Assembly: GCA_000004695.1 (NCBI GenBank)
Contig: CM000151.3
Location: forward strand, 4,192,001 to 4,256,000
From: Dictyostelium discoideum
Lineage: Eukaryota
DNA: 64,000 bases
Reading direction: 5' to 3'
A program made the position numbers and the translations under genes. This document shows, one piece after another, positions 19,419-23,707 of the stretch (position 1 is its first letter; every line of letters starts with the position of its first letter). The notes beneath the pieces are model-generated. The model was not told the origin of the DNA. It was given only the letters and a program-made list of their open reading frames with translations, and searched no databases.

Positions 19419-20308
19419 ATTGTAAATAAATTATACATATAATATGTAAAAATACATAATAGAATTTTATTTTCACAAACGACAACAACAACAACAATAA
19501 ACAATAATTACAATAAAATTAATTCTCCACATATGTCATATTTGTATATTTTAATTTTATTTTTATATCCTTTTATTTAAATGTTAATACTAATAAAATT
19601 AAAATATTTTTTACTTTTTAATTAAATATTACAATCAATTTATAAATATACTATTAAAAACCATTTTATATTTAATTTATTAACCCTCTTCAAAGCAACA
19701 TCGTCATTAACACCACAACCACAAACATCTTATGAACCTATCAATGTTAATTATTTTATAATTTTCGATTTTTCAAAATAACAATAACTCAATTTCAATC
19801 AATAATATAATCGATTCAAAACTTGGAACTTTTTCAATATTATCTATCATTAAAGAACACTACAATGTTGTGTCTATTATTGGTGATAACCAAAAAACTG
19901 TTAGTCTATTAAACGATTTATCAATTAATACTAAAAGATTTAATAACCAACCATCCACAACCAATATCATTGTAAATATTGTTGATGAAAAGTTCAATGT
20001 TAATAGATTTTCAAACCAATTGGAAAAGTTAGACATAAACAAAATATTATCAGAATGTGATAATAACTTCGAAAAAACTAAACAAGTAATGGCCATTACA
20101 TTGAAAAATTAGTATCACAAGAAAATGGTGCATAAATATAATATTAAAAAATAAAAAATAAAACATATAAAAATAAATAAATAAATAAAATAAAGCTTCA
20201 TTATTTATTAAAAAAAATTATTTTATTACATTTTAATTTTATTTTTTTTATTATTTTATTTAATAACATTTTTAAAAATACTTTTTATTTTTATTTTTAT
20301 TCTCTATG

Positions 20309-20544
<236 letters not shown>

Positions 20545-20793
20545 TTGTAAACTGTTTATAATATTTATTATTTAATTTTATTTATTTATTATGATTCTTA
20601 AATAAATGAAGACAATTTGCAATAGGAGATAAATACAAGAAGTATATTATTTATATCTCTAAAGGGAATTATAGTTTTATTATTATGTGTATTGCATTAA
20701 TTCTTTTTTTTGAGTATTTTAAAAACTATTTATACCAAAATCTATTAACCTCTAAAGTTTGTATCTGAAAAATGAAAATTTTACTATAGAAAT

Positions 20794-20839
<46 letters not shown>

Positions 20840-21442
20840 TTTAATATAAATCAAAATCTATTTTCCAGACATTGTTTTAAATAAATAAAAAAATAAAAAA
20901 ATAAAAAAAAATTTTAAAAAAGAAAAATAAAGAAAGAATTTTCTTTTTATTATTTATAGACTTATTTTTTTTTTTTTATTTTTTGTATAATAATCATGGA
21001 AATAGAGCAAAAATTAATATGGATGTGGTAAACGCACAATGAAAAAAAAATTTTTTTTTTTTTTTTTTTTTTTTCATCTATTTTTTTTTTTCATTTTTTT
21101 TTTTATTTTTTTTTTATTTTAATTTTTGTTTTACTCTGTTTAGTAACAATAATAACAAAAAAAAAATATTTAAATATGAGATCAGCTACTAAATTATTTA
21201 AAAATTTGAGCAAAAGTGTTGTTCAATTAAAAACTGTTAAACCAGTATCATCATTAAATTTTGGATATATCAAAACTAGACAATTTTCAACATCAACTAC
21301 TGACTCATCAAATTTATTTTTAAATAACAATAATCAATTTCAAAATTTTACTTTCCCAACAAAACGTAGGTTTTATTTATTTATATATTTAATTATTTAT
21401 TTTTTTCATTTTGTTTAGAAAAAAAATAAAAAAAATAAAAAA

Positions 21443-21479
<37 letters not shown>

Positions 21480-21802
21480 TAAATTTCAAATATTATTCTT
21501 TCAGTTTGTGACAGAAAGAGAAAGAATATACATAAGTTGGGGGAAAAAAAATATATAAACAAATACACATGTGTCAATGAATAAACAGAAGGAATATTCC
21601 AAAATTCCTTCACAACCCCAAAATGGACACAACAGTTGCAATTTTTTTTATTTTTTTTTTACAAAAAATTTTAATTTATTTTATTTTAATTTTTATTTTT
21701 TTTTATTTTTTTTTTTATGAACAAACCAAAAATATAAAAATTTTTTTTTTTTTTTCATTTCATTTTGGATATAATTCATAATAAACAAATACTAATTAAA
21801 AA

Positions 21803-22537
21803 ATGACTCATCCACATTGCCATAAAAAAGAACAAATTAGAATCAGAAAACCAGCTCCAGCTTTCAAAGGTCAAGCTGTTGTCAATGGTGAATTCAAAGA
21901 AATCTCATTAGATGACTACAAAGGTAAATAAAAATAAATTTAATGTCAAATTACATAAAAAAAAAAAAAAAATTAATTAAATACTAATATTTATTTTTTG
22001 CAATATCTAATTATTTTTTTTTTTCTTAATATATATACAGGTAAATACTTATACCTCTTCTTCTACCCATTAGATTTCACTTTTGTATGCCCAACTGAAA
22101 TTATTGCTTTCAGTAATGCTGCTGAAGAATTCAAAAAAGCCGGCTGTGAACTTGTTGGTTGTTCAATTGATTCACCATTCACCCATTTAGCTTGGATCAA
22201 TACCCCACGTAAAGAAGGTGGTTTAGGTGGAATCAACATCCCACTCTTATCCGATTTAACCCATCAAATCTCAAAAGACTACGGTGTTTACATTGAAGAA
22301 GATGGTCACACCATTAGAGGTAGCATTCTCATCGACAAAGAAGGTCTTGTTAGAGTCATTACAATGAACGATAATCCAGTTGGCCGTAGTGTAGATGAAG
22401 CAATCCGTACTTTGAAAGCCTTGAAGTTTACAGATCAATTCGGCGAGGTATGTCCAGCCAATTGGTCAGAGGGCGATAAATCAATGAAAGCAGATCCAAA
22501 AGGTTCAAAAGAATACTTTGAAGCTGTTAATAAATAA
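21803..22537 (+). CDS. 2-Cys peroxiredoxin (typical Prx1-4 subfamily), 2 exons
   Basis: Exon 1 21803..21923 ends [40 protein letters not shown]+G, with GTAAAT donor in phase 1. Exon 2 22041..22537 reads [23 protein letters not shown]...[15 protein letters not shown]...GEVCPANW... Both the peroxidatic FTFVCPTEI and resolving VCP motifs are present. Confidence 0.9.
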
Positions 22538-23322
22538 ATGGTTCAATCCTTTTTTGTAATTCTCTCATCATATTTTTTTTTTTTTTTTTTCATTTTTCAT
22601 TTTTCACTTTCATTTTTCATTTTTTTTTAAAAAAAAAAAAAGCGAGGGGCATTTCGCCACACTTTTTAATTTTTTTTTTTTTTGATTAATATTTTTTTAA
22701 TAATACTGTTTTAAAATGTGTTTGTATATTAATCAGTGTCACTATAAGATTTTTTTTTTTTTTATTATAATTTTTTTATTTGAAAACTTTGGGTGTCAGT
22801 AAAATTTCTAAAACTAATTGACAAAATTCAATTTGTTTTTTATTATTTAAGCAATCTTTTTTTTTTTTTTTTTTGTATTATTATTTTCCAAACCATTAAC
22901 AATAATTATTATTATTATTTAAATTGTTGATTATAAAATTAAATTAATGATACGCACATTTTTTTTTCTTATTGTAATTTGGACAAAACATTAATTTGGA
23001 CTAAAGTTAAACACCTTGAAAGGGATTTCCAAAGTATAAGAACCCAAAGTGAATTAAATGACGAGTTGATTGAGAAATACCAACTTTAACAATAATTATA
23101 GGAACAAAACTTGGTCTTCCATAAGGTAAAACTGTTTGTCTCACAGAAAAAATTAATAAACAACCACAAATATATTTTAAAAAATGAATGCACTGAACTC
23201 TATTGTCCTTTGAAGCAATTAGAAGGAATTAATTCAATAAGTTTAGGAATTTTCAAATTAAATAAAATACTATGAGTTTTTATTTTATTCAAAATGAATT
23301 AAAAATCAAATTAATAGAGTCG

Positions 23323-23369
<47 letters not shown>

Positions 23370-23707
23370 ATTAAAAAATTATTAATGATTTTAAAATTAA
23401 TTTATAAGTTATAAAGAAATTTATATAAAGAATTATATTCTTGTTTATTTTCCCTTTTTAATTGTTGGGAAATTTTTTTTTTATAAGCCAAACTATTTTT
23501 AAAAAGAAAAGAAAAGAAAAAAAAAAAAAAAAAAAAAAATTATTAGTAATTTTGGAAATTTATATAATAGTGATTAAGAAAATTACACTATCCATGTTTT
23601 CCCCTTTTTAATCGGGGATAATTTTTAATACTTTTGATTGGTATTAAAGAAGAAAATTATTAAATGATTCTATTTTTTTTTTTTTAAAAAATTTTAATTA
23701 TTTTAAT

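What the first reader, a model, noticed from the sequence alone, without database searches (positions are those of the whole stretch)
21176..21369. Mitochondrial-presequence-like ORF 430 bp upstream of the peroxiredoxin start
MRSATKLFKNLSKSVVQLKTVKPVSSLNFGYIKTRQFSTSTTDSS... is rich in R/K/S/T/L and has no acidic residues, like a matrix-targeting presequence. It ends at a possible AG|GT donor (21369/21370). It lies on the same strand just upstream of the prx gene, whose ATG (21803) is immediately preceded by an in-frame TAA. This could be an alternative first exon giving a mitochondrial Prx isoform, or a separate small gene. I could not find an in-frame acceptor that joins it to prx exon 1 or 2, so the link is unproven.
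Basis: inference. Interest (0 to 1): 0.5.

Follow-up and report, generated by a model that had tools for sequence, protein, structure and literature searches.

The report
Known mitochondrial-type first exon of Dictyostelium peroxiredoxin
The small upstream reading frame is the already annotated alternative first exon of the Dictyostelium discoideum peroxiredoxin gene prdx4; it puts a mitochondrial-looking targeting peptide on the long isoform, so this is a correct but ordinary rediscovery.

Summary
The ORF at 21176 is real. It is exon 1 (21176-21365) of prdx4 (DDB_G0274859) in D. discoideum AX4.

- **Splice.** The acceptor is 21830|21831, inside the short isoform's first coding exon. The resulting 259-aa protein is letter-for-letter UniProt Q555L5 / XP_644051.2, 'Peroxiredoxin-4'.
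- **Short isoform.** The 205-aa protein from ATG 21803 is letter-for-letter 'Isoform 2' (Q555L5-2).
- **Conservation.** D. dimigraforme and D. firmibasis keep the same exon. Their donors are canonical (AAC|GTAAGT) at the homologous position, they share the AAAAAAG|A acceptor, and all indels in the exon are multiples of three.
- **Targeting.** Residues 1-37 carry net charge +8, have no acidic residue, have a high helical hydrophobic moment and lack a hydrophobic signal-peptide core. A conserved RQF|S/T motif fits a processing-peptidase site. Mitochondrial import is inferred, not shown.
- **Mechanism.** The short isoform most likely starts from a promoter inside the 465-nt intron 1. This is also inferred.

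An older GenBank entry (AAM44382.1, 64 aa) annotated the ORF as a separate small gene; current models supersede it. Novelty: already known. Interest is low.

The parts
21176..21365 (+). Exon 1 of the long prdx4 isoform (63 codons plus 1 nt, phase 1). It encodes the N-terminal extension MRSATKLF...FPTK.
   Evidence: ORF. It belongs to the only exon model reproducing Q555L5. GC is 0.23, against 0.13 upstream and 0.06 just downstream. It is conserved in D. dimigraforme and D. firmibasis, and all 9 gap runs are multiples of 3.
21176..21286 (+). Predicted matrix-targeting presequence, residues 1-37. The putative processing site follows R-Q-F (RQF|ST).
   Evidence: Net charge +8; first acidic residue at 43; hydrophobic moment 0.80 (11-residue window) and 0.67 (18-residue window) starting at residue 1; no hydrophobic core. 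[TN]RQF[ST]T is conserved in three species. The cleavage site is inferred.
21366..21830 (+). Intron 1 of the long isoform (465 nt; GTAGGT...AAAAAAG). It contains the short isoform's likely promoter, 5' UTR and first 28 coding bases.
   Evidence: The homologous introns are 533 nt and 561 nt, with GTAAGT donors and AAAAAAG acceptors, in L001 and L002.
21586..21645 (+). Conserved non-coding block inside intron 1, including the palindrome GGAATATTCC (21591-21600). Candidate cis-regulatory element for the short isoform.
   Evidence: 59% of columns are identical in all three species, as high as exon 1 (57%) and against 26-35% in the rest of the intron. It lies in the GC-richer stretch 21476-21645, GC 0.28. 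No Rfam match. Its function is inferred.
21733..21755 (+). TATAAAAA (21733-21740) followed by T15 (21741-21755), 48 nt upstream of ATG 21803. Core-promoter-like signal for the short isoform.
   Evidence: Read directly. The T-run is conserved. That TATA plus an oligo-dT run precedes Dictyostelium transcription starts is my own knowledge and was not tested here.
21803..21830 (+). Coding segment specific to the short isoform (MTHPHCHKK plus the first base of Glu10). It is removed as intron in the long isoform.
   Evidence: In-frame TAA at 21797-21799.
21831..21923 (+). Exon 2 of the long isoform, which is the 3' part of the short isoform's first coding exon. Start of the peroxiredoxin domain ([13 protein letters not shown]...).
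   Evidence: The Pfam AhpC-TSA domain starts at residue 68 of the 259-aa protein.
21924..22040 (+). Intron 2 (117 nt; AAAG|GTAAAT...ACAG|GT), shared by both isoforms.
22041..22537 (+). Last exon, including the stop codon. It carries the peroxidatic Cys (FTFVCPTE), the GGLG motif, the resolving Cys (EVCPA) and the YF motif.

Best explanation
The ORF is the 5' coding exon of the long isoform of prdx4 (DDB_G0274859), the typical 2-Cys peroxiredoxin gene of Dictyostelium discoideum.

**Long isoform.** Transcripts that start upstream of 21176 splice from 21365 to 21831. This skips the short isoform's start codon and its first ten codons. The product is a 259-aa precursor. Its first roughly 37 residues form a positively charged amphipathic matrix-targeting presequence, probably cleaved after RQF. 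An S/T/N-rich linker of about 27 residues and the peroxiredoxin domain follow.

**Short isoform.** Transcripts that start inside intron 1, probably just after the TATAAAAA-T15 signal at 21733-21755, are translated from ATG 21803. They give the 205-aa isoform without a presequence, presumably cytosolic.

One gene thus supplies thioredoxin-dependent peroxidase to two compartments.

**Shown:** the ORF, the in-frame splice, its identity to the two public isoforms, and conservation of the exon and splice sites.
**Inferred:** mitochondrial import, the cleavage site, and the use of an internal promoter rather than alternative splicing of a single pre-mRNA.
For: 1. Exact-sequence look-up: the 259-aa splice product equals Q555L5 / XP_644051.2 / EAL70321.2. 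The 205-aa product equals Q555L5-2 / XP_644052.1.
2. Only one exon model reproduces the 259-aa protein in the window.
3. Orthologues in D. dimigraforme (263 aa) and D. firmibasis (255 aa) have the same three-exon structure. Their donors are canonical, AAAAAC|GTAAGT, at the homologous position, and their acceptor is AAAAAAG|A. Both also keep an internal MSH(P/S)HCHKK start inside intron 1.
4. Exon 1 behaves as coding sequence. All 9 alignment gap runs are multiples of three, against 4 of 18 in the intron. 57% of columns are invariant, against 26-35% in most of the intron. The ATG and the first ~22 residues are conserved.
5. Presequence features: net charge +8, no D/E in residues 1-42, hydrophobic moment 0.80/0.67, and the conserved RQF|S/T motif.
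6. There is no signal-peptide-like hydrophobic core. The best 8-residue Kyte-Doolittle mean is 0.94.
7. The Acytostelium subglobosum orthologue is annotated with a comparable presequence-like exon and a 573-nt intron.
8. A paper states that prdx4 is the single peroxiredoxin-family representative noted in the genome. This makes dual use of one gene plausible (PMC5787809).
9. The domain is an ordinary typical 2-Cys Prx.
Against: - No transcript or localisation evidence could be obtained here. Neither isoform's product is on record in the contig index, so that absence is uninformative. The only Logan contig found is collinear genomic DNA. No paper on the localisation of this protein was found.
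- dN/dS of exon 1 is 0.5-1.0, against 0.13-0.21 for the Prx domain. The constraint is therefore weak. That is typical of presequences but also of marginal exons.
- The D. discoideum donor is GTAGGT rather than GTAAGT.
- No presequence exon was found upstream of the D. purpureum or T. lacteum orthologues.
- TargetP and MitoFates were not available.
- The orthologue gene models are themselves predictions. They may have been guided by the AX4 annotation.
Confidence: 0.8

Rival explanations
1. The N-terminal extension is real and spliced as annotated, but it is not a mitochondrial presequence. It would target another compartment (for example the secretory pathway, as in mammalian PRDX4, whose name the gene carries), or it would be a non-targeting disordered extension.
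For: The gene is named Peroxiredoxin-4, and its closest solved relatives are human PRDX4 chains. There is no experimental localisation. The extension evolves fast, with dN/dS 0.5-1.0.
Against: No hydrophobic h-region: the best 8-residue Kyte-Doolittle mean is 0.94, and the longest uncharged stretch is PVSSLNFGYI. By contrast, the Cavenderia paralogue P0025 has a clear signal peptide, MNRLLVVLVVALFVAIASA. Net charge +8, absence of acidic residues, a high amphipathic moment and a conserved RQF|S/T motif all fit a matrix presequence. The similarity to PRDX4 lies in the catalytic domain only, residues 55/65-258.
Confidence: 0.1
2. The ORF is a separate small protein-coding gene (64-80 aa) that merely sits upstream of prdx4.
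For: GenBank AAM44382.1 (64 aa, 'hypothetical protein') is exactly exon 1 plus one Gln. It was deposited next to AAM44383.1, the 205-aa Prx. So an earlier annotation read the ORF this way.
Against: That model already used the 21365 donor, because it ends ...TKQ and so is itself spliced. The current RefSeq and UniProt models merge it with prdx4. The donor position and phase are conserved and are compatible with the conserved acceptor inside the prx exon in three species. The 16 codons after the donor in the unspliced ORF (FYLFIYLIIYFFHFV) are AT-rich intron-like sequence, GC 0.06. No homologue of a free-standing small protein was found.
Confidence: 0.04
3. The ORF is a chance open frame or a decayed, unexpressed exon, and only the 205-aa isoform is made.
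For: ORFs of at least 64 aa arise in 4% of simulated spacers. The constraint on the peptide is weak. No equivalent exon was found in D. purpureum.
Against: The frame, the ATG, the N-terminal 22 residues, the RQF motif, the donor and the acceptor are all conserved across three species, with indels only in multiples of three. A presequence-like exon is also annotated in the distant Acytostelium.
Confidence: 0.04

Closest known systems
Dictyostelium discoideum Peroxiredoxin-4, prdx4 / DDB_G0274859 (UniProt Q555L5 isoforms 1 and 2; XP_644051.2 and XP_644052.1)
   Same: Identical. The window encodes both annotated isoforms letter for letter.
   Different: Nothing differs in sequence. The public names ('hypothetical protein', 'Peroxiredoxin-4') say nothing about mitochondrial targeting. 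The data sources available here carry no localisation.
Mammalian PRDX3 (mitochondrial typical 2-Cys peroxiredoxin with a cleavable presequence)
   Same: The same catalytic family: E about 1e-78 to solved PRDX3 chains over residues 68-258. By my own knowledge, human PRDX3 has a similar precursor length (256 aa) and a similar role for the N-terminal extension.
   Different: PRDX3 is a dedicated gene. Here the mitochondrial form is one of two isoforms of a single gene. The catalytic domain scores slightly better against PRDX4 and PRDX2 than against PRDX3. It is therefore a functional analogue, not a demonstrated orthologue.
Mouse Prdx4 alternative exons 1A/1B
   Same: A typical 2-Cys Prx gene uses two alternative first exons. 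One of them encodes a cleavable N-terminal targeting signal and the other does not (PMC7070531).
   Different: In the mouse the signal is an ER signal peptide and the alternative form is testis-specific. Here the signal looks mitochondrial. In addition, the second 'first exon' overlaps the shared exon, because the acceptor lies 28 nt inside its coding region.
Human PRDX5 long and short forms
   Same: Whether the mitochondrial targeting sequence is translated depends on alternative transcription start sites and alternative in-frame start codons (PMC3759418).
   Different: PRDX5 is an atypical 2-Cys Prx. Its two start codons are in one continuous frame, without an intervening intron. In D. discoideum an in-frame TAA precedes the second ATG, and a 465-nt intron must be removed.

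Membership tests
Typical 2-Cys peroxiredoxin (AhpC/Prx1 subfamily) | AhpC-TSA thioredoxin-fold domain plus the C-terminal Prx domain | tested here: met
   PF00578, E 1.9e-38, residues 68-200. PF10417, E 7.3e-13, residues 221-255. E 1e-86 to 1e-78 to solved PRDX4, PRDX2 and PRDX3 chains.
Typical 2-Cys peroxiredoxin (AhpC/Prx1 subfamily) | Peroxidatic Cys in the PxxxTxxC motif and a resolving Cys near the C-terminus (EVCP) | tested here: met
   [13 protein letters not shown] and GEVCPANW are present in the translation and align to human PRDX4. GGLG and YF (KEYF) motifs are also present.
Typical 2-Cys peroxiredoxin (AhpC/Prx1 subfamily) | Thioredoxin-dependent peroxidase activity | not testable with these tools
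   Needs an enzyme assay.
Mitochondrial matrix-targeting presequence | N-terminal, net positive, devoid of acidic residues, rich in hydroxylated residues | tested here: met
   Residues 1-37 have net charge +8. The first D/E is at position 43. S, T, K and L are abundant.
Mitochondrial matrix-targeting presequence | Potential amphipathic helix | tested here: met
   Eisenberg hydrophobic moment at 100 degrees: 0.80 (11 residues) and 0.67 (18 residues), starting at residue 1. This is a calculation only; no structure was determined.
Mitochondrial matrix-targeting presequence | Processing-peptidase site with Arg at -2/-3 (R-x-[FYL]|[SA]) | tested here: inconclusive
   KTRQF|STS in D. discoideum, TRQF|TTS in D. 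dimigraforme, NRQF|TTS in D. firmibasis. The motif is present and conserved, but cleavage has not been shown. The motif definition comes from my own knowledge.
Mitochondrial matrix-targeting presequence | Positive call by a trained predictor (TargetP, MitoFates) and experimental import | not testable with these tools
   No such predictor is installed. No localisation paper was found.
ER signal peptide (as in mammalian PRDX4) | Hydrophobic core of about 7-15 residues after a short charged n-region | tested here: not met
   The best 8-residue Kyte-Doolittle mean in residues 1-40 is 0.94 (SVVQLKTV). Lys/Arg are spread through the segment.
Alternative-first-exon, two-isoform gene | Two 5' coding starts that join the same downstream exons in frame | tested here: met
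   21176-21365 spliced to 21831 gives 259 aa. ATG 21803 read through gives 205 aa. Both are in public databases as isoforms of one gene.
Alternative-first-exon, two-isoform gene | Independent transcription start for the downstream isoform | tested here: inconclusive
   TATAAAAA plus T15 lies 48 nt upstream of ATG 21803. A conserved block sits at 21586-21645. Intron 1 is unusually long, 465-573 nt, in four species. No TSS data are available.
Alternative-first-exon, two-isoform gene | Transcript evidence for the exon 1-exon 2 junction | not testable with these tools
   Contig look-ups returned nothing for either isoform. The Logan contig L004 is unspliced genomic sequence.

The most novel reading that the evidence does not exclude
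The two-promoter, presequence-exon design is ancestral to Dictyostelia and is under-annotated.
- Presequence-like ORFs lie about 700 nt upstream of the annotated start of the orthologues in Heterostelium album (L006 1796-1966) and Cavenderia fasciculata (L007 1779-1988, ending at TCA|GTAGGT). Current models give only the short form in both species.
- In Acytostelium the long form retains the His/Cys-rich N-terminus of the short form.
- In the D. discoideum clade the acceptor has moved 28 nt into the coding region, so the mitochondrial form specifically loses the conserved [10 protein letters not shown] peptide.
- D. purpureum and T. lacteum may have lost or relocated the exon.
Probability: 0.4. 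Interest if true: 0.3.

Novelty: already known. Interest (0 to 1): 0.12.

Why it matters
The result matters mainly as a calibration case. A reader working from raw sequence recovered a genuine alternative targeting exon. The apparent obstacle, no in-frame acceptor, disappears once the donor is placed 4 nt upstream and acceptors inside the downstream coding exon are allowed.

Biologically, D. discoideum appears to cover its mitochondrial and cytosolic needs for a typical 2-Cys peroxiredoxin with one gene. It uses the same trick as mouse Prdx4 and human PRDX5. The gene structure is not new, because both isoforms are in UniProt and RefSeq. The mitochondrial localisation, the cleavage site and the internal promoter remain untested and would be easy to test. 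The side observation that distant dictyostelids may carry unannotated equivalents is a modest annotation improvement.

Tried and rejected
It is in frame (257 aa), but the product is in no database. The donor GTTTTA is poor. The orthologous sites are GTAAGT, 4 nt upstream.
2. **Transcript evidence through exact-product contig look-ups.** Nothing was on record for the 259-aa form. Nothing was on record for the certainly expressed 205-aa form either, so the negative result is uninformative. The 42-aa unspliced product led to Logan contig L004, which is collinear with 21689-22603 including intron 2. It is genomic DNA.
3. **Homology search with the first 80 residues.** It returned only AAM44382.1. 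The word index evidently misses even the full-length proteins, so it says nothing about wider distribution.
4. **ncRNA in the GC-richer intron block.** No credible Rfam hit in 20500-23500.
5. **Heat-shock-element reading of GGAATATTCC.** One exact copy in the window, and the count of matches (allowing one mismatch) is no more than shuffles give. It is conserved only in the two closest species. It remains a lead only.
6. **Profile search for presequence exons upstream of other orthologues.** Models built without the candidates give E 0.1-0.4 for H. album. They give nothing significant for C. fasciculata, D. purpureum or T. lacteum. Homology is therefore unproven. The H. album ORF also has an in-frame TAG 13 nt before the only canonical donor.
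7. **Second prx copy in the window**, prompted by the fused 719/741-aa models P0008 and P0009. None was found.
8. **Literature.** No paper mentions DDB_G0274859 or Q555L5. The only hit for Dictyostelium prdx4 merely lists the gene.

Full report
**What is there.** The window is AT-rich Dictyostelium DNA. Unspliced it runs to a TAG at 21416-21418, giving 80 aa. That ATG is preceded by an in-frame TAA at 21797-21799. The coding sequence continues 21803-21923 / 22041-22537 across a 117-nt intron and gives 205 aa. The quoted peptide contains one acidic residue (Asp43).

**The missing link exists.** I enumerated all GT donors in the ORF and all AG acceptors up to the end of the first prx exon. This gave nine in-frame combinations. 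Two are of interest:
- Donor 21365|21366 (AAC|GTAGGT) to acceptor 21830|21831 (AAAAAAG|AACAAA), giving 259 aa.

An exact-sequence look-up settled the choice:
- The 259-aa product is UniProt Q555L5 / XP_644051.2 / EAL70321.2, 'Peroxiredoxin-4', DDB_G0274859, D. discoideum AX4.
- The 205-aa product is 'Isoform 2 of Peroxiredoxin-4' (Q555L5-2, XP_644052.1).
- The 257-aa product is in no database.

A brute-force search for exon models that reproduce the 259-aa protein finds exactly one: 21176-21365, 21831-21923, 22041-22537. The acceptor lies 28 nt inside the short isoform's coding sequence.

**History of the annotation.** A search with the first 80 residues returned a single protein, AAM44382.1. 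It is a 64-aa 'hypothetical protein' equal to exon 1 plus one Gln. It sits next to AAM44383.1, the 205-aa Prx. The merged two-isoform gene is the current model.

**Independent support from orthologues.** Full-length relatives exist in D. dimigraforme (263 aa) and D. firmibasis (255 aa). I fetched both loci and reconstructed the exon models. Both have:
- a first exon of 178-193 nt;
- a donor at the homologous position with the canonical sequence AAAAAC|GTAAGT;
- a long first intron (533 and 561 nt);
- the acceptor AAAAAAG|A;
- an internal start ([11 protein letters not shown]..., MSHSHCHKKDQ...) inside that intron.

In a three-species DNA alignment, exon 1 has 57% invariant columns, against 26-35% for most of the intron. 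All nine gap runs in the exon are multiples of three, whereas only 4 of 18 in the intron are. The peptide evolves quickly, with dN/dS 0.5-1.0 against 0.13-0.21 for the catalytic domain. This is usual for targeting peptides. It also means the evidence rests on the conserved frame, start, donor and motifs rather than on strong purifying selection. An ORF of this length arises by chance in 1-4% of simulated spacers.

**What the extension is.**
- Residues 1-37 have net charge +8 and no acidic residue.
- The helical hydrophobic moment is high: 0.80 over 11 residues and 0.67 over 18, from residue 1.
- No segment is hydrophobic enough for a signal-peptide core; the best 8-residue Kyte-Doolittle mean is 0.94.
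- The motif [TN]RQF followed by S/T is conserved in the three close species. It fits the R-3 type processing site (my own knowledge of the motif).
- An S/T/N-rich linker of about 27 residues follows.
- The AhpC-TSA domain then starts at residue 68.

The catalytic part is a standard typical 2-Cys peroxiredoxin. It has FVCPTE, GGLG, EVCP and YF motifs, and it matches solved PRDX4, PRDX2 and PRDX3 chains at E 1e-86 to 1e-78. The name 'Peroxiredoxin-4' reflects the best catalytic-domain match, not an ER signal. For contrast, a Cavenderia paralogue (P0025) has a true signal peptide.

**How it most likely works.** The long form requires transcription from upstream of 21176 and removal of 21366-21830. 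The short form's ATG lies inside that intron and follows an in-frame stop. It cannot be reached efficiently on an unspliced long transcript, because ribosomes would start at 21176 and stop at 21418. The simplest mechanism is a second promoter inside intron 1. Three observations are consistent with this:
- The intron is 465-573 nt in four species, which is long for this genome.
- TATAAAAA followed by T15 lies 48 nt upstream of ATG 21803.
- The block 21586-21645, with the palindrome GGAATATTCC, is as conserved as exon 1.

This step is inference. No TSS data were available.

**Wider distribution.**
- The Acytostelium subglobosum orthologue is annotated with a presequence-like first exon and a 573-nt intron. 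Its acceptor lies 7 nt upstream of the internal ATG, so its long form keeps the short form's N-terminus.
- Unannotated presequence-like ORFs lie about 700 nt upstream of the annotated start in Heterostelium album and Cavenderia fasciculata.
- Unbiased profile searches do not reach significance for these ORFs, E 0.1-0.4. The H. album ORF also has a stop 13 nt before the only strong donor.
- Nothing comparable was found in D. purpureum or Tieghemostelium lacteum.

**What could not be done.** Direct transcript evidence was not obtainable. Contig look-ups found neither isoform. The one Logan contig retrieved is unspliced genomic DNA. No paper deals with the localisation of this protein. One paper lists prdx4 as the genome's single peroxiredoxin-family representative.

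**Comparison with known systems.** The architecture parallels two mammalian cases:
- Mouse Prdx4 has alternative exons 1A and 1B, one with and one without a signal sequence (PMC7070531).
- Human PRDX5 uses alternative transcription starts and start codons that decide whether the mitochondrial targeting sequence is translated (PMC3759418).

Functionally, the long form corresponds to mammalian PRDX3.

**Verdict.** The finding is correct in substance and already known. It is exon 1 of the annotated long isoform of prdx4. Mitochondrial targeting is well supported by sequence features but experimentally open. Interest is low.

Noticed in passing
window 21476-21645 (core 21586-21645; palindrome GGAATATTCC at 21591-21600): A GC-richer block lies inside intron 1 (GC 0.28, against 0.06-0.08 for the rest of the intron). 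Its 3' 60 nt are as conserved among D. discoideum, D. dimigraforme and D. firmibasis as the coding exon. It contains GAAtaTTC, which resembles two heat-shock-element units, about 210 nt upstream of the short isoform's ATG. There is no Rfam match, and it was not found in more distant species.
   Followed up: partly
window 21803-21830; orthologues P0015, P0017, P0018, P0019, P0022: The N-terminus specific to the short isoform is a His/Cys-rich peptide kept across Dictyostelia ([62 protein letters not shown]). In the D. discoideum clade it is spliced out of the long isoform. In the Acytostelium model it is retained. It may be a metal-binding or regulatory tail.
   Followed up: no
L006 1796-1966 (Heterostelium album); L007 1779-1988 (Cavenderia fasciculata): Presequence-like ORFs (MQSLRRLSNSINSV..., MNSLKCIRSVTSRV...; no acidic residue and 4 K/R in the first 30 residues) lie about 700 nt upstream of the annotated peroxiredoxin start, on the same strand. 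Several in-frame splices into the prx exon are possible. In L007 the ORF overlaps a minus-strand gene model (1739-2351). In L006 an in-frame TAG precedes the only canonical GTAAGT donor by 13 nt. Homology to the annotated presequences is not significant.
   Followed up: partly
L003 2000-3000 (D. purpureum); L008 1500-2500 (T. lacteum): No recognisable presequence exon lies upstream of the orthologous peroxiredoxin within the DNA held. D. purpureum still has AG|AACAAATTAGA at the position of the D. discoideum acceptor. It also has a short ORF, MNSFINFFKYYPKYFG|GTAAAA, at 2393 that could splice in frame. This is not convincing.
   Followed up: partly
P0025 (Cavenderia fasciculata DFA_01595, 305 aa): A second typical 2-Cys Prx paralogue carries a classical hydrophobic signal peptide (MNRLLVVLVVALFVAIASA). 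It is a true PRDX4-like secretory form, unlike the D. discoideum gene that bears the PRDX4 name.
   Followed up: no
P0008 (719 aa) and P0009 (741 aa), other D. discoideum strains; window 19813-20106: These gene models fuse a peroxiredoxin with a large downstream protein. The Prx N-terminus is identical to the window copy but the C-terminus differs (…[36 protein letters not shown]…). The tail of the fused protein is 38% identical to the gene just upstream of prdx4 in the window. This suggests a second, related locus or a mis-fused model. The window holds only one prx copy.
   Followed up: partly
window 20340-20460: A long (CAA)n tract encodes about 50 consecutive glutamines near the end of the upstream + strand ORF (20306-20521). 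This is a typical Dictyostelium polyQ tract.
   Followed up: no
window 21420-21475 and 20800-20840, 21047-21075: Very long homopolymer runs lie in the flanking non-coding DNA: A about 40 in intron 1, and T30-45 upstream of exon 1. Short-read assemblies break at such runs, as at both ends of Logan contig L004.
   Followed up: no
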